From: a virus
Lineage: Duplodnaviria > Heunggongvirae > Uroviricota > Caudoviricetes
Length of the DNA stretch: 64,000 bases
Virus record (IMG/VR): IMGVR_UViG_3300028914_000001
Span: 285,489 to 349,488 of that record
Reading direction: 5' to 3' (one strand)
The notes below the pieces were generated by a model, which saw nothing but the letters and a program-made list of their open reading frames with translations, did not search any database and was not told the origin of the DNA. The position numbers and the translations under genes were made by a program. Below, piece after piece: positions 42,550 through 63,039 of the stretch (within the stretch, counting starts at the first letter, position 1; each line of letters begins with the position of its first letter).

Positions 42550-42580
42550 TCCATTGAAAATATCAAAAACGAGGTATGAT

Positions 42581-48267: not shown

Positions 48268-48777
48268 ATGATTACTATAGAATATTTCAAGAAGGTCTGC
48301 AAAGACACCCTCGGGGAAAATAACTGCCGTTTCGAATATGTCAAGGACCCGCCTGATGGGGACATCTATATTGTTTCCGTTCAGTGCTGGTACAAGGACG
48401 AAAACACGCAGTTTCTCCGTGAAGAACGCAAGGTTGCTTCCATCTTCGTATACGAGGACGGTTCGTCTCTTGTTTGTGTCAAGCCGTATGGCAAGCACGA
48501 TTCGTATGGAACCGAATGGCGTTTCAAGTTCAAGCGTCTCATGAAGAAGCATACACTCGTGTATCGCAAGTACGACAGGCTTATGGAAGAGATGGCGATG
48601 GACTTCAAGAACATCTTTGCCAACACGGAAGAAAGCATCTATTTCCTCTTCAAGACGATTTATGGAACCGAATGGGGGCCAGCTGCCTATCAGATGGCGT
48701 CGAACCTGCTCGAAACGATGCGCTTGCGTGACAGGAAAGCAACAATAGAAGGAGGCGACAATGCGCAATCTACCTAA
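48268..48777 (+). CDS. hypothetical protein (paralog of 11537..12076)
   Basis: Shared N-terminal motif. Confidence 0.6.
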   Translation: MITIEYFKKVCKDTLGENNCRFEYVKDPPDGDIYIVSVQCWYKDENTQFLREERKVASIFVYEDGSSLVCVKPYGKHDSYGTEWRFKFKRLMKKHTLVYRKYDRLMEEMAMDFKNIFANTEESIYFLFKTIYGTEWGPAAYQMASNLLETMRLRDRKATIEGGDNAQST

Positions 48778-49246
48778 ATTCTATTACAGAGACCTCAAAG
48801 TCCGTGGAACCTGCTACCAGGCGTTGCCTGAAGTCGACCTCTTCGTCCGCAAGTATGTTGGAAGGGATGGATTCGAACGTGAAAAGTGGGTACGCCGACA
48901 TCCGAAGACTGATGCCAAGTGGCGTTACCACCACATGGTAGAAGATGTTTTGACAACGGGAGGGGCGCCGACCCATCCTCTCATGATGAGACGCTATTTC
49001 TTCAAGCGCTGGTTCACTACCATGCAGAGTGAGTTCTGGCATCACTTCCTAACTGAGTTCAAGCTAGGTATTTTGAAAGAGCTGATGCGTATGGTAAACC
49101 AATATGTGAATACGGGTAAGGTAGGCGATACGATGGCTCAAAAGGGAACCAAACTCGATACCGTATTTTCTGTCTTTATGCACTCAGCACAGAACGTTGC
49201 CTTAAAGAAAATGAAAAAGAACGTAGATTCAATTCCAGTTGTGTAG
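48761..49246 (+). CDS. hypothetical protein, possible major-capsid-derived fragment
   Basis: GGAGG RBS; LPEVDL, DAKW, SEF...LTEFKLGILKELMRMVN recall T4 gp23 central motifs. Confidence 0.45.
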   Translation: MRNLPKFYYRDLKVRGTCYQALPEVDLFVRKYVGRDGFEREKWVRRHPKTDAKWRYHHMVEDVLTTGGAPTHPLMMRRYFFKRWFTTMQSEFWHHFLTEFKLGILKELMRMVNQYVNTGKVGDTMAQKGTKLDTVFSVFMHSAQNVALKKMKKNVDSIPVV

Positions 49247-49281
49247 AAGCTCACCGTAATCGAATACCGCAAGGACTCTAA

Positions 49282-49893
49282 ATGAAAATCTATTTCGTTA
49301 GACACGCCCCCACTTCCGCAAACAGTACTGGCACGATGGCTGTCGGCTACGAGAATGCCGACATCACGCTACTGGACAAGCCGGACGACTGGGAAGATAC
49401 TGTTGGTTGTCACATCCCCGCAGAAGCCCGCAGGGTTATCCTCAGTTCTCCTACGAAGCGCTGCGTCAGCACCGCAAAGATGCTGTTTGACACATATCCG
49501 ACCGAGCTGACCGAACTTCTCGGTGAGTTCGACTGCAAGGCGCTCGGGAAGCTTAAATTCTGGGAGATATCCGAGACGGAGTTCACCCAGAAGGTGTTCC
49601 TGCCCGCAGCCACTATGGAAAGCCGTGCGAGGGCCATCCTGAGAGAACTCGTGAACAATGTACGGCACGAGGAACAGGTGGATTCTTTTGTCGCCATATC
49701 CCACGGTATGGTGATACGCTACCTGTACCATTTTCTGAACGGCAACCCAGGCATTTCCGCCTACAAAGTAATCAACTCGGTCGGATTCCGCTTTTCAAAC
49801 CTCGACCTGCTCGTGGTTGACACCGACAAGATGAAAACCGAGGATTACCACTGGAATAAGCCCATCGACCATGCCGGGGTAGTTGAACACTGA
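49282..49893 (+). CDS. histidine phosphatase superfamily protein
   Basis: YFVRHAPT, SSPTKRC..TA, L.E, ISHGMVIR. Confidence 0.85.
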   Translation: MKIYFVRHAPTSANSTGTMAVGYENADITLLDKPDDWEDTVGCHIPAEARRVILSSPTKRCVSTAKMLFDTYPTELTELLGEFDCKALGKLKFWEISETEFTQKVFLPAATMESRARAILRELVNNVRHEEQVDSFVAISHGMVIRYLYHFLNGNPGISAYKVINSVGFRFSNLDLLVVDTDKMKTEDYHWNKPIDHAGVVEH

Positions 49894-50136
49894 AAATGGA
49901 GGCAATATGGCCGCAACTGTATTTTGGATAGTGTTGGGCATTGCTGGCGTTACTGGTATCGTCTGCGGCACCATGGTCACTATCAAAAAACTATCTTTCC
50001 GTTGCAAGCATCAATGGAAAACAGTCAAAGAAATCGACATTGTTGCTCAGGGCTCCGTAATCGGCTACCGCTATATCCAGCAGTGTGTACATTGCGGGGC
50101 AATCCAGCATGTCGATTGCGACTAACGGAGGTAAGA

Positions 50137-50439
50137 ATGAGTAACTACAAAACTACGCTCGAAATCGTCGGCCAGCCAAACCGCAACGGTCGCATATACT
50201 CTGACGAGCTTCTTGCAAAGTACAACGAGTCCTGCCCGAAGGAAATGCGTTACGGCGACAGGGTGGTTGGCCACCTGGACCATGTGTCCTATGATGGAGA
50301 ACGCTACATTGCCGCAATGACCCTCAACGAGAACATCGGAAATCCGCCAATAGGCATCCGAGGCGTTGCCGACATCTCCGAAGACGGAGAATGCCGTGCA
50401 TTGAGCATCGAGTCGATAGATTTTATCAAGGAGAGGTAA
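50137..50439 (+). CDS. truncated, degenerate T4 gp21 prohead-protease-like protein
   Basis: NRNGRIYS, GHLDH, IGIRG in place of VSSRG, C-terminal IDF; GGAGGT RBS; only 100 aa. Confidence 0.6.
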   Translation: MSNYKTTLEIVGQPNRNGRIYSDELLAKYNESCPKEMRYGDRVVGHLDHVSYDGERYIAAMTLNENIGNPPIGIRGVADISEDGECRALSIESIDFIKER

Positions 50440-50712
50440 CATGGTGCATACCCCAGAAGAAGAGAAACTTTTAAAATACTGTGAAGCCAACAAGATTGAT
50501 TTTGACGGAGGGTTTCACCGTTCGATGGTAATCCTTGCAGAAGACTGCTTCAATGAAATGAAGAAGCTGGGTGACAAGGCGAAAGTCCGTGATATACACA
50601 AGTATCTCGCAGCTGTCCATCTTGTGACCGTCGAACGGATGGAAGCGGGTTTTAGGAAACATCTCGCCGAACTGGAACGATTGAACAAGGACTCCTAATT
50701 GGAGGAAACCTC

Positions 50713-51474
50713 ATGAAAGATGACGACGATTATGTATTGGATGAAACCGTCCAGATGTTCTGGCCCGTTTGTATTGAACCCTTAGATGAAGACAAGTGGT
50801 TCGACGATGACTACGACGGCCCTACCTACGATACCCCCGATGAACAGATTCCGCTGCTTCCTGACCTGTTCGACAAATTCTCGACTTCGTGGCAGTCGAT
50901 GCACAGCCCGTATGCCCCCGAGGATATCCCTAAGGGAGTGAAGGTGCATGGCATATTCTTCACGTTCGATAAGGAGCTTGGCGTGTGCGTATGTGCGAAC
51001 TACAAGTTCTCGTACAAGCTTCTCCGTAGTTCGGAAGGGTTCAAGAAGGTAATCAAGAAGCTCGCCGAGGACATTGAAACGGGTTTCGACTCGTGGCTGA
51101 ATACCCATTTCACATTCACGCATGAGGGCAAACGGTTCGACGTAACATCTGGACCATCTGCAAAGCGTATCGTGGCCCCAGTGGAATGCCATGACCAGCT
51201 GTACTTCAAGTGGGACGATGTCGATGATGTAGGCGACGTGGAGATGGCCCTTTCCCACGATAACGACTGTTTCAACATCATCTGGCGACCGAAGGAACAC
51301 AAGAAGACTCTCGACAGGGTTAAGAGGCGTCTCGAAACATTCACTAAACTAGCGGTCGCCCGTGGTGTAAATCCCGACGAGGAGTATTGCATCATCGAGG
51401 ACAAGAAGACCCTCGAAGCTTTCAAGTTCGTCAAGCAGCACAAGAAACAGTATTTTTTCGGACATTTCCATTAA
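50713..51474 (+). CDS. acidic hypothetical protein
   Basis: 253 aa, GGAGG RBS. Confidence 0.65.
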   Translation: MKDDDDYVLDETVQMFWPVCIEPLDEDKWFDDDYDGPTYDTPDEQIPLLPDLFDKFSTSWQSMHSPYAPEDIPKGVKVHGIFFTFDKELGVCVCANYKFSYKLLRSSEGFKKVIKKLAEDIETGFDSWLNTHFTFTHEGKRFDVTSGPSAKRIVAPVECHDQLYFKWDDVDDVGDVEMALSHDNDCFNIIWRPKEHKKTLDRVKRRLETFTKLAVARGVNPDEEYCIIEDKKTLEAFKFVKQHKKQYFFGHFH

Positions 51475-51484
51475 CGGAGTAAAC

Positions 51485-51949
51485 ATGAACATTTTTAAGG
51501 AATTTATCATCTATCTTGCAAACAAGTTCCAGGAACAGCCAAGCAAGGAAGTCATCGATTTGCGTAATCAGATTAAAGAAGCGAACAGCCTGTATTACAC
51601 CTCCGCCGAGGAAAATACAAAGCTCCGCAACAAGCTTAGCCGACTGTCGTTCAAGACCACATGGTATGACCGTGACCATTACCCCATGCCATTAAACCGC
51701 CGCCTGATTGTACAGGGTAAAGATGGCAAGTATTATGTCGGAAGAACTATGAAGGATGTCCAAGGACGGACGGAATTCCATATCGAATACGAACTGACTC
51801 CTGTCAATCCGAAACTAATAGGCTCTGTCATGTTGGAAATCCTTGGGATGTCTTCATGGGCGAAGCAATGGAAGGTCTTCGAGTTTCCTGAAGACAAGGA
51901 GTCAGAACCGAAGAAATCAGCCGAGGATTGCAAGATAGGTGCCCGATAG
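51485..51949 (+). CDS. hypothetical protein
   Basis: 154 aa, GGAG RBS. Confidence 0.6.
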   Translation: MNIFKEFIIYLANKFQEQPSKEVIDLRNQIKEANSLYYTSAEENTKLRNKLSRLSFKTTWYDRDHYPMPLNRRLIVQGKDGKYYVGRTMKDVQGRTEFHIEYELTPVNPKLIGSVMLEILGMSSWAKQWKVFEFPEDKESEPKKSAEDCKIGAR

Positions 51950-51957
51950 TATAAACT
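51950..51957 (+). promoter_or_regulatory. putative late promoter TATAAACT
   Basis: Exact motif 6 nt before ATG 51964. Confidence 0.55.
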
Positions 51958-51963
51958 GTTTGC

Positions 51964-52785
51964 ATGAACAGGAAGGCACTTTTTGAAGAACAGCTCGTGA
52001 AAATGGGTCTCCCCCCGAAGACGAAGGACATGGTCATGAAACTCAATGACGCATGTTTCAAGGAGCGGGATGACAAGAACCCGTGTATCGACGAATACGG
52101 GTTCTATAAGGACCCGATGTCTTGTGACATCGAGACGTTGAAACGGGCGTGGGACGAACCCATCAGGGAGGACAAGAACCCGTTTGAAATCAAGGAAGTC
52201 GACGGGCCTACCCACGACAAGCCAATCGGCGGTTACATCCCGATTAAATCACAGCAGGAAAAGGACGACGAGGAATACGCCGACGACCCGCTGTACCAGT
52301 TCTCCAAGCGTATCCGCCACGAGTTCGACCGAAAGAGCCGATACAGACTTCCGTTCAGCGGCAAGTATCAAATGAATTACATCGTCGGCCCTGAGGTTGA
52401 CGACCCCGAGAACCACATGTTCGACGGATTCCCTAAGACGCTTGATTTCATGAAGGAACACAGGGGATGGCTCTGCGGCCAGATTTCATCACACAGCATG
52501 CCTGAATACATGGGCGGCATGGTCAAGATGCTGATAGGCAGTTGGTATATCACCCTGCTCGTCGTGAAGGACCCAGATTCTTCTAGGGTGGACTACTGTG
52601 TGTACGGTGGGCCCATGCTCTACATGAAGCACGGGACGATGTATGACGGAGACTGCCTTGCGACCAGCAATACAGACGACGTGGAAGAAATCAAGATGAT
52701 TTGCCACAAGATTCTGCACGAGGCGTACGACAATGCGGTCAAGGCACAGTTCCAGTCCATCCGCAAGACCAGTCTCGACGTTTAA
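51964..52785 (+). CDS. hypothetical late protein
   Basis: 273 aa; N-terminal helix similar to other TATAAACT genes. Confidence 0.6.
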   Translation: MNRKALFEEQLVKMGLPPKTKDMVMKLNDACFKERDDKNPCIDEYGFYKDPMSCDIETLKRAWDEPIREDKNPFEIKEVDGPTHDKPIGGYIPIKSQQEKDDEEYADDPLYQFSKRIRHEFDRKSRYRLPFSGKYQMNYIVGPEVDDPENHMFDGFPKTLDFMKEHRGWLCGQISSHSMPEYMGGMVKMLIGSWYITLLVVKDPDSSRVDYCVYGGPMLYMKHGTMYDGDCLATSNTDDVEEIKMICHKILHEAYDNAVKAQFQSIRKTSLDV

Positions 52786-52818
52786 TCGACATTTTACTCA
52801 AAATCTCAGTGGAACCAC

Positions 52819-52847
52819 TTGCCAAAGTGGTACAAAATAGGTATATT
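52819..52847 (+). promoter_or_regulatory. sigma70-type early promoter
   Basis: TTGCCA-17 nt-TATATT; the -35 lies at the centre of palindrome ACCACTT-gcca-AAGTGGT. Confidence 0.75.
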
Positions 52848-52879
52848 TATAAAAAAAGTTTCATTACAAGGAGAAACCT

Positions 52880-53164
52880 ATGTTCGGTATCGAACCTAAT
52901 CTTGACAAAGTGTTCGGCGGAATGTTGAAGCCGAAGCAGCAGAAACTCGTTGATTACACCCAGTATCGCATGGAACGTGATTCCGTCCGTTACGACATTT
53001 TTGGCCGTAGGGTGTGCAACTCCGCTCTTATGTGGCACGAAAGCGCCCGTTTCTGGTTTGACCGTAAGGAAAGAGTAATCATTCCTGAACTGAGCCCGTA
53101 CATGGATGTCCTCGGGGCAAAGCTGTTCCCGGATACGTTGGTCCGTTTCGGAATCCATCCTTAA
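52880..53164 (+). CDS. hypothetical protein
   Basis: AAGGAG RBS. Confidence 0.6.
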   Translation: MFGIEPNLDKVFGGMLKPKQQKLVDYTQYRMERDSVRYDIFGRRVCNSALMWHESARFWFDRKERVIIPELSPYMDVLGAKLFPDTLVRFGIHP

Positions 53165-53181
53165 TCCGTTCGGAGGAACCC

Positions 53182-53919
53182 ATGGGTACAATCCACGAAT
53201 ACATGAGTGCATATCCTTACTACGACGAGAACAAGTGGAGTTGGTCCATCGAGAATCCGAATAAGGATAATGCCCTGTTCATGCGTTACCGTGCCAGGAA
53301 GGGTAAGGATTATCGCAACATGGACAAGCTTCCGTTCTTCGACTCAATCGAGAAGGATGCAAACCAGTTCGGTATGCGGTCGTGTACCTTTACCGACATC
53401 TTTGGCATTACCTGGAAGGGAACGAAGGGTTGCCACATGGTTTCCGATGACCCTGACTACGAACAGCACCTTTACTACTACGACGAGGAAAGCGACGGAT
53501 ACCTTGTCTCTGACGAGTACACGCAGGATAATCCGCCCGCTGATTTCGTTAAGTTGAGAAACCCTAGATGGGATATGTGGGTTGATGTCAAGGGTATCAA
53601 GACGCTCTACTACAAATGGGTTCAGAACAATAACCACCTGTTCAAGGATTCCGTGTTCTATGCGGAATACGATGACGGTACTAAGCTTTCGTTCTACGAC
53701 GTTATAGGTCTGATGTACGGACTGAAACGTCTTCGTCCAGACCTCTACGATGATGTCCTTCCAGAAATTGAACGTCATTTCGAGAACCTGCGTGATAACG
53801 AACGTCTTGAAGTCAAGGAGTTCTGGCCTGGGATGACCGCCCGTGAGTATTTCGAGAAATGGAACGAGGCCAAAGATTACTCTGAAAAGACTGGCGAGCC
53901 TATCGCTACGGACGCCTAA
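53182..53919 (+). CDS. hypothetical protein
   Basis: 245 aa, GGAGG RBS. Confidence 0.65.
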   Translation: MGTIHEYMSAYPYYDENKWSWSIENPNKDNALFMRYRARKGKDYRNMDKLPFFDSIEKDANQFGMRSCTFTDIFGITWKGTKGCHMVSDDPDYEQHLYYYDEESDGYLVSDEYTQDNPPADFVKLRNPRWDMWVDVKGIKTLYYKWVQNNNHLFKDSVFYAEYDDGTKLSFYDVIGLMYGLKRLRPDLYDDVLPEIERHFENLRDNERLEVKEFWPGMTAREYFEKWNEAKDYSEKTGEPIATDA

Positions 53920-53939
53920 TTACACTTAAAGGAAACACA

Positions 53940-54449
53940 ATGAAAACAATTCGTCACTCGGTTTTTGAAACCAATTCCAGTTCTTGCCATGTAGTCACCT
54001 TGCTGAACTCATACGAAATGGAACAGTTCAATAATGGTGAACTGCTCGTCGAGTTCGGCAGAAGCCAAGGCGCAAAGATTGTCGCAAACTTCGTTGAGAA
54101 GTTCCGTTTTGGCTATGACCTCGAACACCTGCAATTCGGCTACGATTACAAGGAAGAAAAACCCACCTATTACGACCTTCCGAGGGAAAGCTTGGAGAAA
54201 CTGAGAGATGCCTTGTGGGATTTGCTTCAGGAAGGCATGAAGACTCATATCGAGCATTTTGATGACAAGGTCGCCTCGATATTCTCTGATGCTGGCGTAA
54301 CGGATGAATTGTACATCGAACGGGTTAAAAACTACATTGAAGACTTTGCTGGTGTATCTACCGTTAATCACCTCATGGAAGACATGACGACATACACGAT
54401 GCCTAACGGCGAGGTCATGCATTTCAGTTGTCATGAGTTCGAGTGTTAA
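53940..54449 (+). CDS. conserved phage protein with IRxxVFETNSSSxH motif
   Basis: MKTIRHSVFETNSSSCH. Confidence 0.7.
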   Translation: MKTIRHSVFETNSSSCHVVTLLNSYEMEQFNNGELLVEFGRSQGAKIVANFVEKFRFGYDLEHLQFGYDYKEEKPTYYDLPRESLEKLRDALWDLLQEGMKTHIEHFDDKVASIFSDAGVTDELYIERVKNYIEDFAGVSTVNHLMEDMTTYTMPNGEVMHFSCHEFEC

Positions 54450-54450
54450 T

Positions 54451-54894
54451 ATGAGAACGTGGCTCCAACTAAGTATTCTCAGGAGTGCTGCTGACAACGG
54501 TTACCGTTTGGCTATAAATGGTACACTGATTGACCAGAAGCCTCCTTTTGGTTCGTCTGAGATTGAACTGAGCACCCATAAGCTGGCCGACCTTTTCGAT
54601 ATCGACACCCTCGTTGACATGCTTGATTACAAGAAGGAATGCGAACGGTTGAAAACGCTCTTCTTCGTCTCCAACAGGGAGCTGTCCGACTGGGTTGACG
54701 CCAAGAAAGGACGCCGGATTCATGTGGTCAAGCCGAACCAGATGATTAACCAAGGAATATCCTACGAGAATTGGCCGTATTCGGAGGACACTGCGGAACT
54801 GAACGCCAGGAACGCTGGTGACATCTTCGTGGTTGAGGCAGGGTCCAGCACCCTGGAGCACCTGACCCGACGGGCGATTGGCCTGGATGTCTAA
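54451..54894 (+). CDS. hypothetical protein
   Basis: ORF in operon. Confidence 0.5.
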   Translation: MRTWLQLSILRSAADNGYRLAINGTLIDQKPPFGSSEIELSTHKLADLFDIDTLVDMLDYKKECERLKTLFFVSNRELSDWVDAKKGRRIHVVKPNQMINQGISYENWPYSEDTAELNARNAGDIFVVEAGSSTLEHLTRRAIGLDV

Positions 54895-54922
54895 GGTGAC
54901 GCTTACTAAATATGGAGAAAAA

Positions 54923-55192
54923 ATGAAAAAGGTAATTCTATTTATCATGGCTTTTGCCATGGCGGCATTTGCCGATATTAAACTGGACTTCCAGGTCTCG
55001 GTTAACCGCATGGGCTGTTCCCTCATCCAGTGGGTCGAAAACGGCTATGAATCTGGGGTGAAGTGGAAGCACTACGGCAAGTTCGCCTGCAAGGAGGAAA
55101 TCAAGGCTCCCGTCAAGATTGTCGGCCTGAAATTCCTGTATGTCGGCGAGAACTTGAAGGGCGAGTACATTTACGTCTATGGCGAGGACTAG
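54923..55192 (+). CDS. small secreted protein
   Basis: Sec signal peptide MKKVILFIMAFAMAAFA-D; GGAG RBS. Confidence 0.65.
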   Translation: MKKVILFIMAFAMAAFADIKLDFQVSVNRMGCSLIQWVENGYESGVKWKHYGKFACKEEIKAPVKIVGLKFLYVGENLKGEYIYVYGED

Positions 55193-55531
55193 ATGGCCAC
55201 GATGATTCCAGACATAGCCTTGGAAACCACTCTTGAATGGCTGGCGAAGTTCAACCGCCACGAGTACTTCACCAAGGGACTCTACAAGAAGCTTCCTAAG
55301 TACAAGGAATGCGGTGTTCGCCGTGAAAAGACTGAAATCCAGGTGGCTTTCATCTGCAAGGCGTTGCAACTGAAAGGCATCTATACGACACCTTGCGGAG
55401 TCGCCTGGTCAAAGATATGGGACGATTCCAAGACGGTCGATGATTACCTGAAACCATATCAGGATATCATCGACGGCTATGTGAAATGGTGTGAAGAGCA
55501 GAACAATAAGATAAGGGCTAATCATGGCTGA
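55193..55531 (+). CDS. hypothetical protein
   Basis: 112 aa coupled ORF. Confidence 0.55.
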   Translation: MATMIPDIALETTLEWLAKFNRHEYFTKGLYKKLPKYKECGVRREKTEIQVAFICKALQLKGIYTTPCGVAWSKIWDDSKTVDDYLKPYQDIIDGYVKWCEEQNNKIRANHG

Positions 55532-55736
55532 AACATGGCTTGGAACATCGAAGATGGAACAGGAGGCGAACTACTTCGCACACTGCCTGCTCATGCCCGA
55601 GGAGATGCTGATACCAGACTGGGAGAAGTCATCCAAGGATTCCGCAGCGGTAGACAAGCTCGCCGATGAATACCATGTCACACGTACGACCATGCTGGTA
55701 CGACTGAGTGGACTCGGCCTATACAAGGAGGACTAA
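55524..55736 (+). CDS. ImmA/IrrE C-terminal fragment lacking HExxH
   Basis: EQEANYFAHCLLMPE...LADEYHVT.....RL. Confidence 0.7.
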   Translation: MAETWLGTSKMEQEANYFAHCLLMPEEMLIPDWEKSSKDSAAVDKLADEYHVTRTTMLVRLSGLGLYKED

Positions 55737-56230
55737 AATGTCTGACGTAATTAAAGGATTGACAAACGACCTGCTTTGGAAGAATATCTACAAGTTCTCA
55801 TCCAAGTGGAATCTGGCCATAATCTGCGTTGCAATCCCAGAACCCGTCGTCGAGCAGCTGAGACGGGATTTTTCAGCGGCCTATCCCGACAAGGATTTCG
55901 ACACCGAGTGGGAAACCTGTATAAAGGAATAATATTATGGCAGAGTCGATGGATACCAAGATTGCTAAATACAACATACGTTCCCGTTATACATTCGCCA
56001 TGCGCAACCTGATGATTGCTCAATCGGTTAACGAGAAGGTAAAGAATTTGAGGCATACAATAACAGGATTGCCTGTTCCAGACACGTTCGATACGAAACT
56101 TACGTTGCATACACCTAAGGATTGGATTGTCATTTGGTCTAAGGTCCACGTCAGGGTTAGTATCTATCTTGCCAACCTTCGGTATAATGCGTGTCTAAAC
56201 AATGAAAACCGTCAATGACGAATAAATCAC

Positions 56231-56304
56231 TGTCCCGTAGTTTAACTGGAAAAATGTGGCCCTCCGAAGGCCAAGACGTGCGTGTTCGAATCACGTCGGG
56301 ACAA
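56231..56304 (+). tRNA. tRNA-Arg(CCG)
   Basis: Acceptor TGTCCCG/CGGGACA, anticodon arm TGGCC-CTCCGAA-GGCCA, T arm GCGTG-TTCGAAT-CACGT; CCA not encoded. Confidence 0.9.
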
Positions 56305-56325
56305 CTTTAATACTTAGGTAGAATC

Positions 56326-56586
56326 ATGAAACCATCCGATATTCCTGTTTCCGCATCCGTGGTGCGACTTGCTCCAAGCATGAAGATGATTGGACAGAAG
56401 GTTGCGGAAAGACGCAAAAAGCTGATGATAACCCAGAAGGACCTTGCCGAGATGGCCGGGGTTTCGTCAAGGATGGTAAGCATGGTTGAACGAGGGCTGG
56501 CGAACCCTACTGTAACAGAACTTAGCGACATGATTAAACCTATCGGGTTTGTAATCACGTTGCAGGAACGAGTGATTAACCCGTGA
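56326..56586 (+). CDS. XRE-family HTH regulator
   Basis: IGQKVAERRKKLMITQKDLAEMAGVS...VS.VERG.ANPT. Confidence 0.9.
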   Translation: MKPSDIPVSASVVRLAPSMKMIGQKVAERRKKLMITQKDLAEMAGVSSRMVSMVERGLANPTVTELSDMIKPIGFVITLQERVINP

Positions 56587-56969
56587 GGCAATTATGTGTG
56601 AATTTCTATCGTACCTCTACAATGAACAGTCATGGATACTCTGGATGGCAGCGTTCTGGGTTATCGGAGTGCTGATGGTTGTCATCGACTATTTTCAGAA
56701 TAAAAACAAACCACCCAAGCCAAAGGAAACCCGCTGGCACAAGGAATTGTGGGGTTAGAAACACTTATGGATGAACTGACTGATGAAGAAATCGAGAAGT
56801 ATATCCCGTACAGAAAGGAAATACAGGATATTCTCGAAGAAGACGGCTTGGTTATAACCCGTATAGATGACAACGGGTCTGAAAACCTATGCCAATGTGC
56901 GACGGCTGAGGAAGTTTTTACTGCGGGTTGCCGATATGTAATCGGGCGCATGAAACAGGAGGGATTGTT

Positions 56970-57245
56970 ATGAGACCTGCAAACTGGATTGAATTGGGGC
57001 AGAACGACACCGTGGAATTCGATGTCCACTGCGTGATGAAAAAGTGCTGGGCAAACGAGTTCCTGTCCATGCTGGCAGACATGCAGCGTCTCGGCGAGAT
57101 GGGCTGCAGCAGGATGAGGGGCATGTATTGCGACGGCGATGGCGACTTCCGTCCGAAGTTCCACCACAACCTTGAAGGGTTCACCGAGACCGAGCACAGG
57201 GTAAGCAAGGAAGACCCGGCCATTTGGTTCTGGGATGCTGGGTAA
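56970..57245 (+). CDS. conserved phage hypothetical protein
   Basis: LG..G.SR......DGDGDFRPKF motif. Confidence 0.6.
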   Translation: MRPANWIELGQNDTVEFDVHCVMKKCWANEFLSMLADMQRLGEMGCSRMRGMYCDGDGDFRPKFHHNLEGFTETEHRVSKEDPAIWFWDAG

Positions 57246-57264
57246 TTAAAATAGGAGACTGACA

Positions 57265-57825
57265 ATGGCGACGAAATCAAAAGAAGACTGGGAAGCCCAG
57301 ATGGAAGCTCGACGGAAAGAACGTGAGGAGTATGACTTCAAAGAATGGGGATACCATGAAACTAAACTTGGCGAATTCCTTATAGACAGGTTGGCCCACA
57401 AGGAAAAGCCGAAAGACTTGTTCGATATGTGGAATGACCGTTCCACGGAGCAATTCAATCACCTTGCTTCTTTCGCAAGGCGTGTAGTATGCGGATTGAA
57501 AGCTGACGAAAGTGTGAAGGAAGAACCTGACGGCAAGACGACTTACCAGTATTCATACAAGGATAAAGTTCTGTTGGCCGTGGTAATTTACAACGGGAAT
57601 TACACCCTTCTATTCCCTTGCATGAACGACATCGTTGACGGCGACATAAGACGATATGCGGATAACCCGTTGTTCCCGTTCCTTAACTTCTTCCAGTGGT
57701 TCGACACCACCATATACGGACCACAACAGGGTCTGTATAGCCTATATTTCCGAATGCTCATGGGCTACCTTGTTTACAAGTTCCCTGAAACAAGAACCCG
57801 TTTCCTGCATGCACCAAAGGGGTGA
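57265..57825 (+). CDS. hypothetical protein
   Basis: AGGAG RBS, 186 aa. Confidence 0.6.
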   Translation: MATKSKEDWEAQMEARRKEREEYDFKEWGYHETKLGEFLIDRLAHKEKPKDLFDMWNDRSTEQFNHLASFARRVVCGLKADESVKEEPDGKTTYQYSYKDKVLLAVVIYNGNYTLLFPCMNDIVDGDIRRYADNPLFPFLNFFQWFDTTIYGPQQGLYSLYFRMLMGYLVYKFPETRTRFLHAPKG

Positions 57826-58346
57826 TTATGAACGATAAATACCAGGAATTTCTACAAAAGCGCCATCCTGAACTCATAGCGGAGGCGGAATCTTTCATCA
57901 ATGCCGATACGGAGGAGCCTAAGTCAAAGCCGAAGAAACGTACGAAAATGGACCGTAGCAGCTGGGAGTACATCTGCCGTTTGATGCCGAAGTTGAAGAA
58001 CTTGGCACATGTCCGTATACCTGGTGGCGGAATGGGAAGAATGGATGGGTGGTATGTATATACCGTAGCTACCGTCGGATGCCGTAAGGAGAAAGTGGGC
58101 ATCAGTATCTGGGCGCACGATTACAAGTGTGGCAAGCATTTCACTGAAAGGATTCCTCTTACGGGCAAGGAGCATTTTCTCGAATTTTATACGAGGTTCG
58201 GCAACGCCTCCACATCGTGCTACCAGAGCATGACCAACCTGCCTGGTCATAAATGCATGGATGGGCACGGTAACGTATATCCTACTGACATACCTCACAA
58301 GAGAAAAGAAATCTACCGATATCTTGGAATAGAGACAAAGGAGTAA
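57822..58346 (+). CDS. hypothetical protein
   Basis: 174 aa coupled ORF. Confidence 0.6.
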   Translation: MIMNDKYQEFLQKRHPELIAEAESFINADTEEPKSKPKKRTKMDRSSWEYICRLMPKLKNLAHVRIPGGGMGRMDGWYVYTVATVGCRKEKVGISIWAHDYKCGKHFTERIPLTGKEHFLEFYTRFGNASTSCYQSMTNLPGHKCMDGHGNVYPTDIPHKRKEIYRYLGIETKE

Positions 58347-58348
58347 AT

Positions 58349-58666
58349 ATGGGTGTAGATTACAAATGGGGCGGAAGCGCTGGCGGAATGCGTTTTGGAC
58401 AGGAAATCGACCAGGTCGCCAAGGTATTTGGCGGCAAACGAATCGAGGGAAGCAAGGGACCCAATAGGTACGGGCTTCCAGACGGGACAAACCCGTGCGT
58501 CGTGAAATTCTTCGACCACCTGTACGGACCGCTGAGCGTTGAAGAGACAAAGGAAGTATGGAAGGAGTTCCAGACGCATCCCGAAATCGAGCAGATAATG
58601 CCCGAGATGTGGAACGAGTTCAAGTGCGACGCAATGTACGACGAAGAGTTCGAGTTGAGTTACTAG
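58349..58666 (+). CDS. hypothetical protein
   Basis: AAGGAG RBS, 105 aa. Confidence 0.6.
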   Translation: MGVDYKWGGSAGGMRFGQEIDQVAKVFGGKRIEGSKGPNRYGLPDGTNPCVVKFFDHLYGPLSVEETKEVWKEFQTHPEIEQIMPEMWNEFKCDAMYDEEFELSY

Positions 58667-58693
58667 ACAGAGAAGATTTAACAAAAGGCAATT

Positions 58694-59437
58694 ATGAGCA
58701 ATTTCAACCATCCGTATATATACGAAGGCGGCGAATACAATCATCTGACTAGCCAGAACGAATGCCGTGTTGTGACCGCTACAAGGAAGCTTGGAGCCCG
58801 TTTCTACAACCCTATGCGTTACGACATGCTGAAACAGTGGCTTCCACACAATTACGAATGCCCTGACAAGGAGTGCATGATTCATGTCATCGCCTGCCCG
58901 TGCATCATGTGGAATGACCTCGGTGAAGACAAGATGAACGAAAAGTTCAAGTTCTGTGCCTGTATCGAACCTGAAATCGACATGACCAAGTTCAGCCCGT
59001 TGTGGCATCGTGTCGGCAGGAAAACATTGTTGTTCATATTTGGTTCCCCGATGTATGAAATCGCCCAATGCTCTGCACCTAACGGAAAGTGTTTCTACTC
59101 GATGATATTCCAGGTGGACGAGGAGGCATACGAGCATCTCGAAACCCGTGCAGGCTCGTTCGCAAACCTCCCGATAGGCTCGTCCATCAATGCCTTCATG
59201 GCTGCTGTCAGGCGGAACCCGTTAAGGCCCCATCCGTTCAAGAATGCAGTCCCGCCCGTTGAAGTCAAGACGCTAGCGGAGTTCATCGAAGCGAAGTACC
59301 CGGATATCATGAAGGAATACAAGGAAGAGCTGAAACGGATAACCAAGCTTTCATACGAGAGCCTTCCAGGGGAAATCACCAGTTTCAAACAAGGAAATGA
59401 AAATGCAAGTAACATCGACGATACAGTTCAAGTTTGA
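58694..59437 (+). CDS. hypothetical Cys-rich protein
   Basis: 247 aa ORF. Confidence 0.6.
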   Translation: MSNFNHPYIYEGGEYNHLTSQNECRVVTATRKLGARFYNPMRYDMLKQWLPHNYECPDKECMIHVIACPCIMWNDLGEDKMNEKFKFCACIEPEIDMTKFSPLWHRVGRKTLLFIFGSPMYEIAQCSAPNGKCFYSMIFQVDEEAYEHLETRAGSFANLPIGSSINAFMAAVRRNPLRPHPFKNAVPPVEVKTLAEFIEAKYPDIMKEYKEELKRITKLSYESLPGEITSFKQGNENASNIDDTVQV

Positions 59438-59828
59438 CCCAAACAAGGAATACAAATGTCCCAAGGACAAGATTGATGCCTTGGTCGAGTTCATTACAAA
59501 TCATGTGCAGGAATGTCCAGCGCACTGGATTATCATGTCTCCAGAATTAGTGTCCGTGCTGATGACGGCGAACGTGTTGGCTCCGAAGCCCGTTGTTTCC
59601 AATACCAGTGACACGGGTAGGGAATTTATGTTCCATCCAACGAACTCGGCGGTTACACTTAATCTTTACGCATGTCAAGGAGAAATGAACGCAGTGGTGT
59701 TCCCCGACTATTCAGACAGCCTTTACATCCTGAACTGTGGACATCCGAAGGATTTCATCGGCGACATGGACGCTGGGTCAGGCTGGGAAAGCAATGATTC
59801 AATCAAACTCGCAAGGAGAATAATATGA
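59397..59828 (+). CDS. hypothetical protein, possible major-capsid P-domain-derived fragment
   Basis: PAHWIIMSPELVSVL resembles the gp23-family (G/P)ANWIV.SP.VA.IL motif. Confidence 0.45.
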   Translation: MKMQVTSTIQFKFDPNKEYKCPKDKIDALVEFITNHVQECPAHWIIMSPELVSVLMTANVLAPKPVVSNTSDTGREFMFHPTNSAVTLNLYACQGEMNAVVFPDYSDSLYILNCGHPKDFIGDMDAGSGWESNDSIKLARRII

Positions 59829-60172
59829 TTGAAGAAGCCAAGGATATTTTTCGTGACGAAACCTGCTTCTATGTAATTGCCGCAATCAAGAATGGCGATG
59901 GCGGGTTCATTAAGTTCTGGAAGTCCAAGGCGTCTGGTGGAGAATGGGTTGACGATATTGCCAAGTCCAAGCACTATACGACGCTCGGTGTCGCTGCAAG
60001 GGAACTCCGTAATGAAAACGGCTATCTCAGATACTGGGGAAAAGTTCCGATGATACAGACGCACGGAGATTCCGTCCGTTTCTCCGTATGCCATGCAAGG
60101 GCTAATGTAGTGGTCGTGAAGGAAGAAAAGTTTAACGTAGACCGTGCAAATGCACAGGAAAGGGGAACATAA
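59825..60172 (+). CDS. hypothetical protein
   Basis: AAGGAG RBS. Confidence 0.55.
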   Translation: MIEEAKDIFRDETCFYVIAAIKNGDGGFIKFWKSKASGGEWVDDIAKSKHYTTLGVAARELRNENGYLRYWGKVPMIQTHGDSVRFSVCHARANVVVVKEEKFNVDRANAQERGT

Positions 60173-60173
60173 T

Positions 60174-60500
60174 ATGATTGAAAACAAGGAAGAATACAGG
60201 TGTAAACGGTCAGAACTTTCATCCAAGAAGGACGAGCTTAGTGAAAGTATCGATATGGTCGATGCCGTCAGGGAAATGCTGAAAACGTACAATGTTCGGC
60301 GGTTGTCCGCATTGAAGGCGAAGCTTGAACAGGACTATGATGCGGTCGCAGATGAGTACTACAAGTTCATCAAGGAAGAAAATGAAGTCTTTGACGAAAT
60401 CTGCAAGAAGTTCAGCGCCAACCAGATTGAATGCTGGTTTGTACAGGGGCGTGACGTTGTTGACCTTGTAAATTCATACCTGTCCGGCGAACTGAAATGA
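60174..60500 (+). CDS. hypothetical helical protein
   Basis: ORF in operon. Confidence 0.55.
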   Translation: MIENKEEYRCKRSELSSKKDELSESIDMVDAVREMLKTYNVRRLSALKAKLEQDYDAVADEYYKFIKEENEVFDEICKKFSANQIECWFVQGRDVVDLVNSYLSGELK

Positions 60501-60635
60501 GAGAAGCCATGTCGGAAGAACTGGAAGAGGAACGCTACCGTGAGCAGCGGATGCGTGAAGAAGCCGAGGCGGAGGAACAGTTCTGGCGTGAAGCCATGCT
60601 GAACTACGACTATGAGCGTGGTGACTGGAAATACT

Positions 60636-60668
60636 AAAAAGCTCTCCGATTTGGAGAGCCTTTCCTTT
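60636..60668. terminator. bidirectional terminator
   Basis: AAAAA-GCTCTCC-gattt-GGAGAGC-CTTTCCTTT between convergent genes. Confidence 0.7.
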
Positions 60669-61464
60669 ATTCATCGTAGTCGTCGAAGAACAGTCCGTAC
60701 TCCCTCATCCATGCACGGGCCCCGATTTGGTCGGCCCGTTTTTTCATTTCCTTCACGTTGAAGTTGTACACGTCCCACCAAGGGATTTCAACAAGGAGGA
60801 ACGGCGATTTTGCACCCATAGCTTCTACGCAGAGCTTGTAGAAGGCGTTGTCGGTCCCGTTGGTAGCGGACGATATGATTATCTTGTTGAATACCCCGCA
60901 GGTAATTGTCGGGAAGAATGCCTTGACTATGTGTTCCTGTTGTTCCTTGGTTGCGAACGCAAAGTCGTCTAGGAACATGTAGTTGACACGGGGTGTTATC
61001 AAGTAGGTTTTACTGGAATCTTCTACGTTATCGAGTGTACCGTATGACTTTGCTACGATAACGGAGTCTGTTGTAGTGTTTCTAATCTCGCCCTTATTGA
61101 ACTTGATTGACAACCCGTCATTGTACCATTCCGCAGGAAGGTTTTTTAGAGAGAAGGCGATTTTACCCACTATTTCGCATGCCCTTGCCAGCTTGGTTGA
61201 AACGACCGTTATCGTAACACCTTCCTCGAACAGCAGCTTGTGCATGATGAACAGCGTCGCTTCAAGCGTGGAGCCAGACTGTCTCGGCTGTTTCAGAATC
61301 AGGTTTCTCTTGTTGCCGCAGATTGGCGGAAGCTGCATAAGGGTCAGAACCTTCCGTTGGTAACCCCTCGTGGACATGCGTTCTGTCCCGTTGCAGTTCT
61401 GTACATAGGTGAATTTCGCAAGGTCGAAAATGTTGTCCTTGCAGTTAAGGAATGATTTACTCAT
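60667..61464 (-). CDS. terminase large subunit ATPase-domain paralog, nuclease-less, with degenerate Walker A/B
   Basis: RGYQ, PRQSGST (K to S), FLDDFAF (E to D), IISSATNG..NAFY, WWDV, REYGLFF then stop. Confidence 0.8.
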   Translation of the reverse strand: MSKSFLNCKDNIFDLAKFTYVQNCNGTERMSTRGYQRKVLTLMQLPPICGNKRNLILKQPRQSGSTLEATLFIMHKLLFEEGVTITVVSTKLARACEIVGKIAFSLKNLPAEWYNDGLSIKFNKGEIRNTTTDSVIVAKSYGTLDNVEDSSKTYLITPRVNYMFLDDFAFATKEQQEHIVKAFFPTITCGVFNKIIISSATNGTDNAFYKLCVEAMGAKSPFLLVEIPWWDVYNFNVKEMKKRADQIGARAWMREYGLFFDDYDE

Positions 61465-61543
61465 ATTGTACCCCGTATGTTAACCAGCAGACGGAATTGC
61501 CGACTGGCCGAAGCATAATTAAAGTATATTTTCACGATTTCCC

Positions 61544-61572
61544 TTGACAGGAACGGGTTTTTGAGCTATATT
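61544..61572 (+). promoter_or_regulatory. sigma70-type early promoter
   Basis: TTGACA-17 nt-TATATT. Confidence 0.85.
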
Positions 61573-61589
61573 GTCGAACGAGGTATATT

Positions 61590-62009
61590 ATGAGAATGCC
61601 TAGATTTTATTACATAATGAAGCACAAGTTGCATGCGTTCGTCGCCCGCAACTTCACTGGATGTGCATACTGCAACGAAAAGAAATTGTGGAAGATGTTC
61701 GGCGAAAAGTGCGTCCCGCTGGACAACTTCAATACTCTGATGGATAGCGTCCCGGTCGGAGACGGCAAGACAAAGTACGCCTGCTACTTCTACCCCAAGC
61801 AGCGCTGCATCGATGTCAACCGAGTGGACGAGAACGGGAAGTACATCACTGTCGAATCAATCTTCGTACACAACTGCCCCGAATGCGGAAGGCCATTGCC
61901 GTATATGCTCGGTAACAAGAAAAAGAAGGAAAAGGTGGTCATCGCTTCGACGCCCAAGGGCCCTAACGTGTTCTACAACATGTGGAAAAAGGCGGTTGGA
62001 ACAAGATGA
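61590..62009 (+). CDS. Zn-ribbon protein ending in a terminase coupling-motif-like peptide
   Basis: CAYC, CPECGR, C-terminal KVVIASTPKGPNVFYNMWKKA. Confidence 0.65.
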   Translation: MRMPRFYYIMKHKLHAFVARNFTGCAYCNEKKLWKMFGEKCVPLDNFNTLMDSVPVGDGKTKYACYFYPKQRCIDVNRVDENGKYITVESIFVHNCPECGRPLPYMLGNKKKKEKVVIASTPKGPNVFYNMWKKAVGTR

Positions 62010-62477
62010 AGACCAAGATTATCTATAAGGGTTCCGTCTGGCGGAGCTATTACTGCGAAGTCAACCTGAAGCAGTTGAGCAAGGAACTTGCTGACAGGCT
62101 GATGGACTCTTCCGATATTTCCACTTGCCTGAACACCCATATCATCAACAAGGAGTTGACTCCTGACGATGTGGTAAAACTTATCGACTTCCTCAAAGAG
62201 AAGGAAGTTTGGAACAATGTGGCCCGTCTGGTCGTAAATGAAGATAGTTGATTATGAAAATCATGTTGCTGTGGCTTAAAGTCGTATTATTCTGTGTAAT
62301 CCTACTGCTGCCGACGATTATCGGAGGGGTTACTGAAACTACTAGGATTCTTAGCAAGCAGATGTCTATGCTGATATTCCTTCCGATACAGTTTTTATGG
62401 GTTCCCGTGCCTTTCCTGATGTTCAGGAAATCTTCTAAGGATATTGACGAGTTGCTGAAAAGGTTTGAGGACTAAAA

Positions 62478-63011: not shown

Positions 63012-63039
63012 GCATTGAAAATTTTAATGGAGGTATGTT

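What the first reader, a model, noticed from the sequence alone, without database searches (positions are those of the whole stretch)
48761..62009. Truncated or dead copies of morphogenesis proteins among early genes: possible decoys against structural-protein-sensing immunity
Seen: five ORFs in the early accessory region resemble pieces of T4-type head proteins: terminase ATPase (60667), terminase motif peptide (61590), prohead protease (50137) and two capsid-like segments (48761, 59397). They have intact reading frames, most have clear RBSs, and none has the late TATAAACT motif directly upstream. The two enzyme-like ones lack catalytic residues. Established: Avs/STAND NTPases sense terminase and portal, CapRel and Lit sense capsid protein, and some CBASS respond to prohead protease. 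Inference: early non-activating mimics could occupy these sensors before the true late proteins appear, or poison assembly of competing phages. The capsid assignments rest on remembered motifs and are the weakest part.
Basis: inference. Interest (0 to 1): 0.8.

Follow-up and report, generated by a model that had tools for sequence, protein, structure and literature searches.

The report
Disabled head-protein mimics, rumen jumbo phage
A 422-kb uncultured T4-like phage keeps a conserved but catalytically dead copy of the ATPase half of its DNA-packaging motor and a miniature head-protease look-alike without its active serine; these probably act by binding, but whether as immune decoys or as packaging regulators is untested.

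Summary
The window lies in a complete 422,150-bp T4-like jumbo phage. Its real TerL, major capsid protein and prohead protease are all encoded outside the finding.

The five claimed head-protein look-alikes fared as follows:
- **60667-61464(-), solid.** A 265-aa homolog of the TerL ATPase domain only. The Walker A Lys is Ser, the catalytic Glu is Asp, and there is no nuclease domain. It is under purifying selection and occurs beside a true TerL in every large relative.
- **50137-50439, probable.** A 100-aa miniature of T4 gp21. His85 is kept and Ser140 is Gly.
- **59397-59828, weak.** The fold model resembles an HK97 capsid A-domain, but the sequence support is marginal.
- **61590-62009, motif only.** A conserved Zn-ribbon protein; only its last 25 residues resemble TerL motif III, and only in 2 of 5 genomes.
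- **48761-49246, rejected.** An all-helical protein with no capsid signal.

The genes differ in which relatives carry them, so they are not one module. The catalytically disabled ones probably work by binding. Nothing here shows decoy action. Published data cut both ways: Avs2 and Upx sense the TerL ATPase domain alone, yet T4's TerL-like vs.8 triggers Avs2, and CBASS senses protease activity rather than the protein.

This scan had already noted dead TerL-ATPase paralogs in other phages.

The parts
60667..61464 (-). TerL pseudo-ATPase: 265 aa, ATPase domain only (N-subdomains I and II). Walker A Lys is Ser, catalytic Glu is Asp, motif III reads SSA, and there is no nuclease domain.
   Evidence: Orthologs are 49-92% identical and 255-277 aa long. 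omega is 0.16-0.40. The central segment is mosaic. Each large relative carries a true TerL as well as this paralog.
60641..60659 (.). G+C-rich hairpin just 3' of the pseudo-ATPase gene, between convergent genes; terminator-like.
61465..61525 (-). Near-invariant 5' leader of about 50 nt upstream of the pseudo-ATPase gene, with a TATACT -10-like box. The predicted hairpin pairs UGCUUCG with the ACGGGGU Shine-Dalgarno region.
   Evidence: The two variable positions keep pairing (U-A to U-G), but there is no compensatory change. Folding z-score is -1.9. No Rfam match.
61544..61572 (+). Conserved sigma70-type promoter (TTGACA, 17 nt, TATATT; 11 of 12 matches) for the Zn-ribbon gene, back to back with the pseudo-ATPase promoter.
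61590..62009 (+). 139-aa Zn-ribbon protein (CxxC...CPxC), divergent neighbour of the pseudo-ATPase in all four relatives. Residues 112-136 (nt 61923-61997) form a TerL motif-III-like tail found only here and in G002.
   Evidence: omega 0.24-0.38
50137..50439 (+). 100-aa miniature homolog of the gp21/S77 prohead protease. It has the NRNGRIY motif and H49 (= T4 His85), G73 replaces Ser140, and there is a deletion of about 30-40 residues between them.
   Evidence: Only three small relatives were found in 1.8 billion representative proteins. Absent from four related phages.
59397..59828 (+). 143-aa conserved protein, a possible derivative of the A-domain of a gp23-type capsid protein (weak).
   Evidence: omega 0.37 against G005; Foldseek PDB and BFVD searches found nothing significant
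48761..49246 (+). 161-aa conserved all-helical protein with no detectable relation to head proteins (the rejected 'capsid-like' ORF).
   Evidence: omega 0.24 against G002

Best explanation
This is not one system. It is a set of separately inherited accessory genes, two of which (possibly three) are non-catalytic derivatives of head-morphogenesis proteins.

The solid core is a two-gene, divergently transcribed unit: a TerL ATPase-domain-only pseudo-ATPase at 60667-61464(-) and a Zn-ribbon protein at 61590-62009(+).

Shown:
- The pseudo-ATPase keeps the TerL fold landmarks: the adenine-binding YQ motif, the P-loop backbone with its Arg, the motif III region, and the C-terminal subdomain-II helices up to the hinge.
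- It has lost the Walker A Lys and the catalytic Glu, and it has no nuclease domain.
- It is conserved under purifying selection next to a normal TerL in every large relative.
- It has a near-invariant leader that can fold over its ribosome-binding site.

Inferred mechanism: competitive mimicry. The protein occupies a site that normally receives the TerL ATPase domain, without hydrolysing ATP or translocating or cutting DNA. The most likely partner is part of the packaging machinery (portal clip, TerL ring or TerS) of this phage or of a co-infecting relative. In that role it would delay, tune or poison packaging during an early, translationally gated window. The 100-aa gp21-like protein, which keeps the His but lacks the Ser nucleophile, would similarly bind gp21 partners or substrates without cutting them.
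For: - Homology and lost catalytic residues: for the TerL-like gene; for the gp21-like gene.
- Selection: omega is 0.16-0.40 over 36 ortholog pairs. By region it is 0.08-0.34 in the N-terminal third, 0.08-0.19 in the C-terminal third and 0.27-0.51 in the middle.
- The most conserved stretch, residues 226-263 (nearly invariant in 20 orthologs), aligns with the end of gp17 N-subdomain II next to the hinge. A T4 review places the portal-interacting helix-loop-helix in a region associated with the hinge, and a peptide of that sequence inhibits packaging (PMC9958956).
- The gene and its Zn-ribbon neighbour are present in all four related phages examined, while the flanking genes come and go. This core-like distribution is unlike most patchy anti-defence genes.
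- It is a separate minus-strand unit with its own promoter-like site, a conserved leader hairpin over the SD and a terminator-like hairpin.
- The middle third has dS of 1.1-1.4, against 0.13-0.41 in the flanks of the same pairs. It has therefore been exchanged between lineages, as expected for a surface that tracks a variable partner.
- Precedent for a diverged prohead-protease paralog lacking a catalytic residue in a giant phage: SPN3US gp117 (PMC5694885).
Against: - No binding partner is shown, and no structure of the pseudo-ATPase was predicted here.
- The mapping of the conserved C-terminus to the portal-binding element rests on an alignment plus a low-resolution T4 model, and I could not read the primary paper.
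- A dominant-negative TerL mimic would also threaten the phage's own packaging unless it is shut off. That shut-off is only suggested by the leader hairpin, which shows no covariation.
- Early sigma70-type expression precedes the appearance of any portal of the phage itself. That fits an immune or inter-phage role better than self-regulation.
- The strongly conserved P-loop without Lys could mean the protein still binds nucleotide and has a function unrelated to mimicry.
- The gp21-like ORF is nearly unique and has no predicted structure.
Confidence: 0.35

Rival explanations
1. Immune decoys. The early-made, ATP-blind TerL ATPase mimic binds TerL-sensing receptors of the host (Avs1-3 or Upx type) without activating them, so they are blocked before the real TerL appears. 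The mini-gp21 and the capsid-domain look-alike would do the same for protease- or capsid-sensing systems.
For: - EcAvs2 and Upx are activated by the TerL ATPase domain alone. EcAvs2 recognition uses the terminase-bound ATP plus a bridging ATP (PMC13601566). A mimic that keeps the active-site surface (YQ motif, P-loop, Arg) but lacks the Lys needed to hold ATP could bind without completing that interface.
- The recognisable promoters are sigma70-type and no late motif is present.
- The central segment is mosaic and deeply diverged, which looks like an arms-race signature.
- The gene lies in an accessory region about 17 kb downstream of a candidate NAD-salvage anti-defence cluster.
- Dead TerL-ATPase paralogs recur in unrelated phages according to earlier notes of this scan (not re-tested here).
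Against: - The only tested TerL-ATPase-like accessory protein, T4 vs.8, is toxic together with EcAvs2. It triggers the sensor rather than blocking it (PMC13601566).
- Avs sensors fire on binding, so a binder that blocks without activating is an extra assumption.
- CBASS is activated by gp21 cleaving a CD-NTase loop (PMC12991175), so a dead protease has no sensor to occupy.
- The five ORFs are not inherited together, one is not head-related at all, and the pseudo-ATPase is core-like rather than patchy.
- The host and its defence repertoire are unknown.
Confidence: 0.22
2. Unrelated exaptations with no common theme. In a paralog-rich jumbo genome, duplicated pieces of head genes were kept for different purposes. 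Examples would be a nucleotide- or DNA-binding regulator working with the Zn-ribbon protein, or a minor head or scaffold component like SPN3US gp117. The resemblance to immune targets would then be coincidence.
For: - The genome has 66 intragenomic paralog pairs at E<1e-3, most of them not head genes.
- The five ORFs are distributed differently among relatives.
- The Zn-ribbon gene is conserved beside the pseudo-ATPase and shares an invariant promoter and leader region with it.
- The conserved P-loop may still bind nucleotide.
- A protease paralog lacking a catalytic residue is known in SPN3US (PMC5694885).
- The nearby gene at 53940 shares an N-terminal leader with several other proteins of this genome.
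Against: - No DNA-binding or regulatory domain was detected in the pseudo-ATPase.
- The strongest conservation lies in TerL-specific surface elements rather than in a new domain.
- None of the five ORFs carries the shared N-terminal leader.
Confidence: 0.28
3. Neutral relics or chance. On this view the weaker items are chance resemblances or decaying fragments carried along by recombination: 59397, the 25-residue TerL-like tail and 50137.
For: - The tail occurs in only 2 of 5 genomes. It sits exactly at the edge of a roughly 1.5-kb insertion shared only with G002.
- For 50137, Pfam S77 gives no hit, and an exhaustive phmmer search found no protease among the hits.
Against: - All of these ORFs have intact frames.
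- Where orthologs exist, omega is 0.24-0.38.
- 59397 has more than 20 conserved ortholog clusters of constant length.
- 50137 beat all 200 shuffles and aligns the NGR-Y, His and S-x-R-G landmarks in order.
- This explanation cannot apply to the pseudo-ATPase.
Confidence: 0.1

Closest known systems
TerL (large terminase) ATPase domain, T4 gp17 N-domain (PDB 2o0h, 3cpe)
   Same: Same fold family by sequence, with collinear landmarks: adenine-binding YQ, the RQxG P-loop, a Walker B hydrophobic strand ending in D, motif III followed by NG..N.FY, and the terminal EY..F before the hinge.
   Different: The Walker A Lys is Ser or Ala in all 20 orthologs. The catalytic Glu is Asp, Asn or Glu depending on the ortholog. 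Motif III is SSA or SST. There is no RNase H-like nuclease domain. The gene sits outside the packaging module and coexists with a normal TerL.
T4 vs.8, a TerL-ATPase-like accessory protein that is toxic with EcAvs2 (Evans et al. 2026, PMC13601566)
   Same: A stand-alone, nuclease-less TerL-ATPase-like protein of a T4-type phage, encoded among accessory genes.
   Different: It is not an ortholog: hhalign probability is 15% over 46 columns around the P-loop only. vs.8 keeps Walker A GKS and Walker B DE, whereas the protein here has lost the Lys and the Glu.
SPN3US gp117, a diverged paralog of the prohead protease gp245 (PMC5694885)
   Same: A giant phage carrying, besides its gp21-type protease, a second diverged copy that lacks one catalytic-triad residue.
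   Different: gp117 lacks the His and keeps Ser and Asp. ORF 50137 keeps the His and lacks the Ser, is only 100 aa long with an internal deletion, and is nearly unique to this phage.
Dead TerL-ATPase paralogs noted earlier in this scan (P1/D6-type phage-plasmids, Rak2-like 'truncated large terminase', another rumen phage)
   Same: The same theme: an ATPase-domain-only TerL copy with catalytic residues lost, kept by selection, function unknown.
   Different: These are different lineages and families. None shares sequence words with this protein apart from notes on this same genome. I did not re-test those reports.
HK97-fold major capsid proteins (T4 gp23/gp24), A-domain
   Same: For ORF 59397, the best structural matches and a collinear pair of motifs (hWIIMSPxLVSVL against NFIIASRNVVNVL, and GEMNAVVFPDY...PKDF against NEMDAGIYYAPY...PKNF) fall in gp23 residues about 329-473.
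   Different: Only 143 aa, with no P-domain, spine helix or E-loop. There is no Pfam Gp23 match, and the statistics are marginal.

Membership tests
Large terminase TerL (T4 gp17 type) | Significant sequence similarity to the TerL ATPase domain | tested here: met
   phrog_5989 E=3.3e-12, phrog_2 E=5e-8; T4 gp17 PDB chains E=6e-8; own TerL E=6e-14
Large terminase TerL (T4 gp17 type) | Walker A lysine (GKT/S) | tested here: not met
   The motif reads PRQSGST. The Lys position is Ser or Ala in all 20 orthologs, against SRQVGKS in the phage's own TerL.
Large terminase TerL (T4 gp17 type) | Catalytic glutamate after Walker B (DE) | tested here: not met
   LDDFAF here. Orthologs read DD, DN, ND, DE or EE, so the position is not conserved.
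Large terminase TerL (T4 gp17 type) | C-terminal RNase H-like nuclease domain | tested here: not met
   The protein ends at the EY..F motif that closes the ATPase domain. tblastn with the phage's own TerL finds no nuclease-domain fragment in 58000-64000.
T4 vs.8-like TerL-ATPase-like proteins | Detectable orthology to vs.8 and intact Walker A/B | tested here: not met
   BLASTP E=20. hhalign probability is 15% over the P-loop region only. vs.8 has GKS and IIDE.
Prohead protease, MEROPS S77 / T4 gp21 (ORF 50137) | Profile similarity to the gp21 core | tested here: inconclusive
   Supporting: hhalign against T4 gp21 plus own gp21 gives E=3e-4 and 40% probability over 84 columns, with 0 of 200 shuffles reaching the score; phrog_207 E=0.002. 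Not supporting: Pfam PF03420 gives no hit at E<=1, the PDB profile search does not find gp21, and the exhaustive phmmer search found no protease.
Prohead protease, MEROPS S77 / T4 gp21 (ORF 50137) | Catalytic His (T4 His85) | tested here: met
   H49 aligns with His85 and is invariant in the four-member family.
Prohead protease, MEROPS S77 / T4 gp21 (ORF 50137) | Catalytic Ser nucleophile (T4 Ser140 in SSRG) | tested here: not met
   GIRG aligns with SSRG. G73, invariant in the family, takes the place of Ser140.
HK97-fold major capsid protein, gp23 type (ORF 59397) | Sequence-profile match to Gp23 (PF07068) | tested here: not met
   No Pfam hit at E<=1. A PF07068 scan of the genome hits only 215790-216908, 413077-413361 and weakly 57317-57406. 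hhalign to the phage's own MCP gives 0.3% probability.
HK97-fold major capsid protein, gp23 type (ORF 59397) | HK97 A-domain fold | tested here: inconclusive
HK97-fold major capsid protein (ORF 48761) | Any sequence or fold similarity to capsid proteins | tested here: inconclusive
Phage anti-defence decoy of a protein-sensing immune receptor | Binds the sensor without activating it and protects the phage | not testable with these tools
   The host and its sensors are unknown, and a binding or co-expression assay is needed.

The most novel reading that the evidence does not exclude
The phage makes early, non-activating look-alikes of the proteins that bacterial pattern-recognition immunity senses. 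An ATP-blind TerL ATPase domain would plug Avs1-3 or Upx-type sensors. A serine-less mini-gp21 would shield protease-sensitive CBASS loops or delay protease activity. A capsid A-domain fragment and capsid-peptide tails would act against capsid sensors. Together these would form the first 'decoy set' against protein-sensing defence.
Probability: 0.12. Interest if true: 0.85.

Novelty: new variant of a known kind. Interest (0 to 1): 0.55.

Why it matters
Recent work shows that bacteria detect phages by recognising conserved core proteins directly. The TerL ATPase domain is sensed by Avs2 and Upx, capsid and portal by other Avs families, and gp21 protease activity by CBASS. No phage counter-measure based on mimicking these targets is known.

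This phage offers a conserved, selected, catalytically dead TerL ATPase domain with its own regulated transcription unit and a lineage-swapped central surface. That makes it a concrete reagent for two questions: whether such mimics block, trigger or ignore those sensors, and whether they regulate or sabotage the packaging motor.

Even if the answer is 'packaging regulator', a pseudo-enzyme subunit of a viral DNA-packaging motor would be new biology. If it is ordinary gene debris, that sets a baseline for the many similar 'dead terminase' calls made in this scan.

Tried and rejected
- **Complex prediction.** Complex prediction of the pseudo-ATPase (alignment A8) with the Zn-ribbon neighbour (A7) gave no verdict (score 0.00). 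This counts neither for nor against binding.
- **Relatives of 50137.** The search for related loci found none in IMG/VR. A search of five related records also found none. The longer hits of the exhaustive phmmer search are ankyrin, dockerin or Big_9 repeat proteins and are therefore spurious.
- **Sequence searches for 48761, 50137 and 59397.** Single-sequence searches against PDB found nothing. Profile searches with A2, A3 and A4 found nothing relevant.
- **Fold searches.** Foldseek against PDB for both models, and against BFVD for 59397, gave nothing at E<=0.001.
- **hhalign of A4 against the phage's own gp21 alone.** Only 17 columns aligned, at 3% probability. The signal appears only when T4 gp21 is added to the target profile.
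- **More TerL debris near the Zn-ribbon tail.** There are no further fragments, and the tail has no nucleotide similarity to the phage's own terL. It is therefore not a recent copy.
- **Orthology with T4 vs.8.** Rejected.
- **Hit in the 642-kb uncultured phage LR756502.** This is that phage's full-length, intact TerL and not a paralog. All named-phage hits of the pseudo-ATPase fall on genes annotated as true TerL.
- **Rfam on the conserved leader.** No match.
- **Shared N-terminal 'LP(K/R)(F/I)YY' motif of 48761 and 61590.** Only these two ORFs have it, so I treated it as coincidence.
- **TATAAACT at 51950.** It lies only 6 nt before the ATG of 51964, whereas the usual distance in this genome is 20-35 nt. 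I did not take it as proof of a late gene.
- **megablast of 58000-63000 against GenBank phages.** No match.
- **Primary paper on the gp17 portal-binding element (PMC3318623).** It could not be read.

Full report
**Setting.** The window is bases 285489-349488 of a single 422,150-bp virus record with direct terminal repeats, judged complete. Its TerL is 33-35% identical to those of T4-like cyanophages and pelagiphages. Earlier notes of this scan call it a rumen jumbo phage. The real head genes all lie outside the finding:
- TerL (554 aa, intact SRQVGKS / LDEFAF / TSTPNG) at genome 277683-279347
- a gp23-type major capsid protein at 215589-217439(-)
- an S77 prohead protease of 241 aa at about 154046-154771(-)

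**ORF 60667-61464(-), the solid item.** This 265-aa protein matches terminase PHROGs (phrog_5989 E=3e-12), the crystal-structure sequences of the T4 gp17 ATPase domain (E=6e-8, gp17 residues 135-340) and the phage's own TerL (27% identity, E=6e-14). An alignment with T4 gp17 and the own TerL shows that it spans the whole ATPase domain. It stops at the EY..F motif just before the hinge to the nuclease domain.

- Changed: Walker A reads PRQSGST (Lys replaced by Ser), Walker B reads LDDFAF (Glu replaced by Asp), and motif III reads SSA.
- Retained: the adenine-binding RGYQ motif and the P-loop Arg.
- No nuclease fragment lies nearby.

The protein has at least 37 ortholog clusters of 255-277 aa at 49-92% identity in metagenomes, some on contigs of up to 420 kb. 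All 20 aligned orthologs lack the Walker A Lys, and the catalytic-Glu position varies among D, N and E. Pairwise omega is 0.16-0.40. Every sizeable relative carries both a 555-562-aa TerL and this paralog. This is therefore a maintained pseudo-enzyme and not a decaying copy.

Two further features stand out:
- The N-terminal 84 and C-terminal 72 residues are highly conserved, but the middle third has dS of 1.1-1.4, against 0.13-0.41 in the flanks of the same genome pairs. The central segment has therefore been swapped between lineages.
- The gene is a lone minus-strand unit. It has a terminator-like hairpin at its 3' end and a roughly 50-nt leader that is almost invariant among relatives whose proteins are only 62-74% identical. 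The leader can fold into a hairpin over the Shine-Dalgarno region. No Rfam family matches it.

**ORF 61590-62009(+).** This is the divergent neighbour, and it is present next to the pseudo-ATPase in all four related genomes examined. It is a CxxC...CPxC Zn-ribbon protein driven by a conserved near-consensus sigma70 promoter, TTGACA-17-TATATT. In three relatives the protein ends shortly after the second Cys pair. Only this window and G002 carry a 25-residue tail, KVVIASTPKGPNVFYNMWKKAV. That tail resembles TerL motif III more than it resembles the pseudo-ATPase's own motif III. A motif-III regex finds only this site and the real TerL in all six frames of the genome; because I chose the pattern after seeing the match, this is supportive only. 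The tail sits at the edge of a roughly 1.5-kb insertion shared only with G002. It is probably a captured TerL fragment.

**ORF 50137-50439(+).** The true start is the ATG at 50137, behind a GGAGG site. Single-sequence tests were weak: phrog_207 'head maturation protease' at E=0.002-0.005 over 38 residues, no Pfam S77 hit, and no PDB hit. An exhaustive phmmer search of 1.8 billion representative proteins found only three small relatives.

A profile of those four proteins compared with T4 gp21 plus the phage's own gp21 gave a clearer signal. hhalign returned E=3e-4 and score 29.6 over 84 columns (query 5-88 against gp21 41-155). No score among 200 column-shuffled queries reached it (mean 12.0, sd 2.4, max 22.3). 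The alignment places three landmarks in order:
- NRNGRIY on NRNKRLY
- GHLDH on GELNH (T4 His85 = H49, invariant in the family)
- GIRG on SSRG (T4 Ser140 = G73, invariant in the family)

About 30-40 residues between the His and the Ser are missing. I read this ORF as a miniature gp21 homolog without a nucleophile. It is absent from the four relatives.

**ORF 59397-59828(+).** It has more than 20 ortholog clusters of constant length, 141 aa, and omega of 0.37 against G005. No Pfam, PHROG or PDB sequence match was found. The AF2 model is of modest quality (pLDDT 62), and Foldseek found nothing.

**ORF 48761-49246(+).** This is a conserved gene (omega 0.24), but the model is seven helices with no strands. 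Nothing by sequence or fold points to a capsid protein. I reject this assignment.

**Timing and context.** TATAAACT(AT) is a strongly over-represented motif (65 copies against about 20 expected). It typically lies 20-35 nt before start codons in the structural half of the genome, so it is a credible late promoter. None precedes the five ORFs. The recognisable promoters in the region are sigma70-like, at 47331, 52819 and 61544. Early expression is therefore plausible but only inferred.

The neighbourhood is mostly ORFans, with three exceptions: a histidine phosphatase, an M78-peptidase fragment and an XRE-type HTH protein. One gene in the region (53940) shares an N-terminal leader with several other proteins of this genome. 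The genome is rich in paralogs in general, with 66 pairs at E<1e-3.

**Mechanism.** Lost catalytic residues combined with purifying selection make action by binding the likeliest reading. For the pseudo-ATPase I favour competitive mimicry of the TerL ATPase domain at a packaging partner (confidence 0.35). The reasons are:
- Its most constrained stretch aligns with the hinge-proximal end of N-subdomain II. A T4 review places the portal-interacting helix-loop-helix in a region associated with the hinge, and a peptide of that sequence inhibits packaging (PMC9958956).
- The gene is core-like in this clade.
- It is under separate, apparently tight expression control.

- For it: Avs2 and Upx recognise the ATPase domain alone, and EcAvs2 uses the terminase-bound ATP, which this protein probably cannot hold (PMC13601566). 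The swapped central segment looks like a conflict signature.
- Against it: T4's TerL-like vs.8 triggers EcAvs2 rather than blocking it (PMC13601566). vs.8 is not an ortholog of this protein. CBASS senses gp21 activity through loop cleavage, which a dead protease cannot 'occupy' (PMC12991175).

A third possibility is unrelated exaptations with no common theme (0.28). SPN3US gp117, a protease paralog lacking a catalytic residue, is a precedent (PMC5694885).

**Novelty.** TerL-ATPase-only paralogs are barely described in the literature; vs.8 was mentioned in 2026. This scan has noted them repeatedly in other phages. The family here is a new, catalytically dead variant. It has a conserved Zn-ribbon partner gene, a conserved leader and a mosaic middle segment. 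The serine-less mini-gp21 appears to be undescribed.

Noticed in passing
L013:967-1635 (+) = genome 412543-413211, outside the window: The last ~54 residues of a 222-aa ORF align with the phage's own major capsid protein (residues 69-123) and with T4 gp23 103-128. From memory, that conserved segment overlaps the T4 'Gol' region sensed by Lit. Pfam Gp23 gives E=1.6e-5 here. This is a second case, after the Zn-ribbon tail, of a head-protein peptide fused to the C-terminus of an accessory protein.
   Followed up: partly
window 61465-61525 (-) and the same place in L004-L010: The ~50-nt leader of the pseudo-ATPase gene is almost invariant among phages whose coding sequences have dS of 0.2-1.0. It can fold over its own ribosome-binding site. 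No Rfam match, no covariation, folding z-score -1.9.
   Followed up: partly
window 60667-61464, codons 85-193: The central third of the pseudo-ATPase gene has 3-7 times the synonymous divergence of its flanks in the same genome pairs. This points to recombinational swapping of a central cassette between lineages.
   Followed up: partly
window ~61920-63470: A ~1.5-kb block with four ORFan genes (61982, 62248, 62478, 63040) is shared only with relative G002. Its left edge falls inside the 3' end of the Zn-ribbon gene and creates the TerL-like tail.
   Followed up: partly
window 55193-55736 and 56326-56586: A 70-aa ORF matches only the C-terminal half of the ImmA/IrrE M78 peptidase domain (E=3e-11) and overlaps the preceding 112-aa ORF by 8 nt, so the gene may be split or frameshifted. 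An XRE-type HTH_3 protein is encoded 600 nt downstream.
   Followed up: no
window 53940-54449: The first ~34 residues of this 169-aa protein match the N-termini of at least three otherwise unrelated proteins elsewhere in the genome (72397-72906, 66562-67290, 74372-75085). This is the shared leader that earlier notes read as a capsid-targeting tag.
   Followed up: no
window 50713-51474: This 253-aa ORFan, next to the mini-gp21 gene, belongs to a paralog family of at least four members in this genome (also 34560-35180, 41902-42681 and 404976-405662; E down to 1e-23). It has no Pfam match.
   Followed up: no
window 49282-49893: A histidine phosphatase (His_Phos_1, E=1e-12) lies between the rejected 'capsid-like' ORF and the mini-gp21 gene.
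   Followed up: no
genome 4.6-27 kb, minus strand (outside the window): TATAAATA occurs 17 times on the minus strand within ~22 kb, while TATAAACT dominates from 90 to 390 kb. This suggests two promoter classes in different genome sectors.
   Followed up: no
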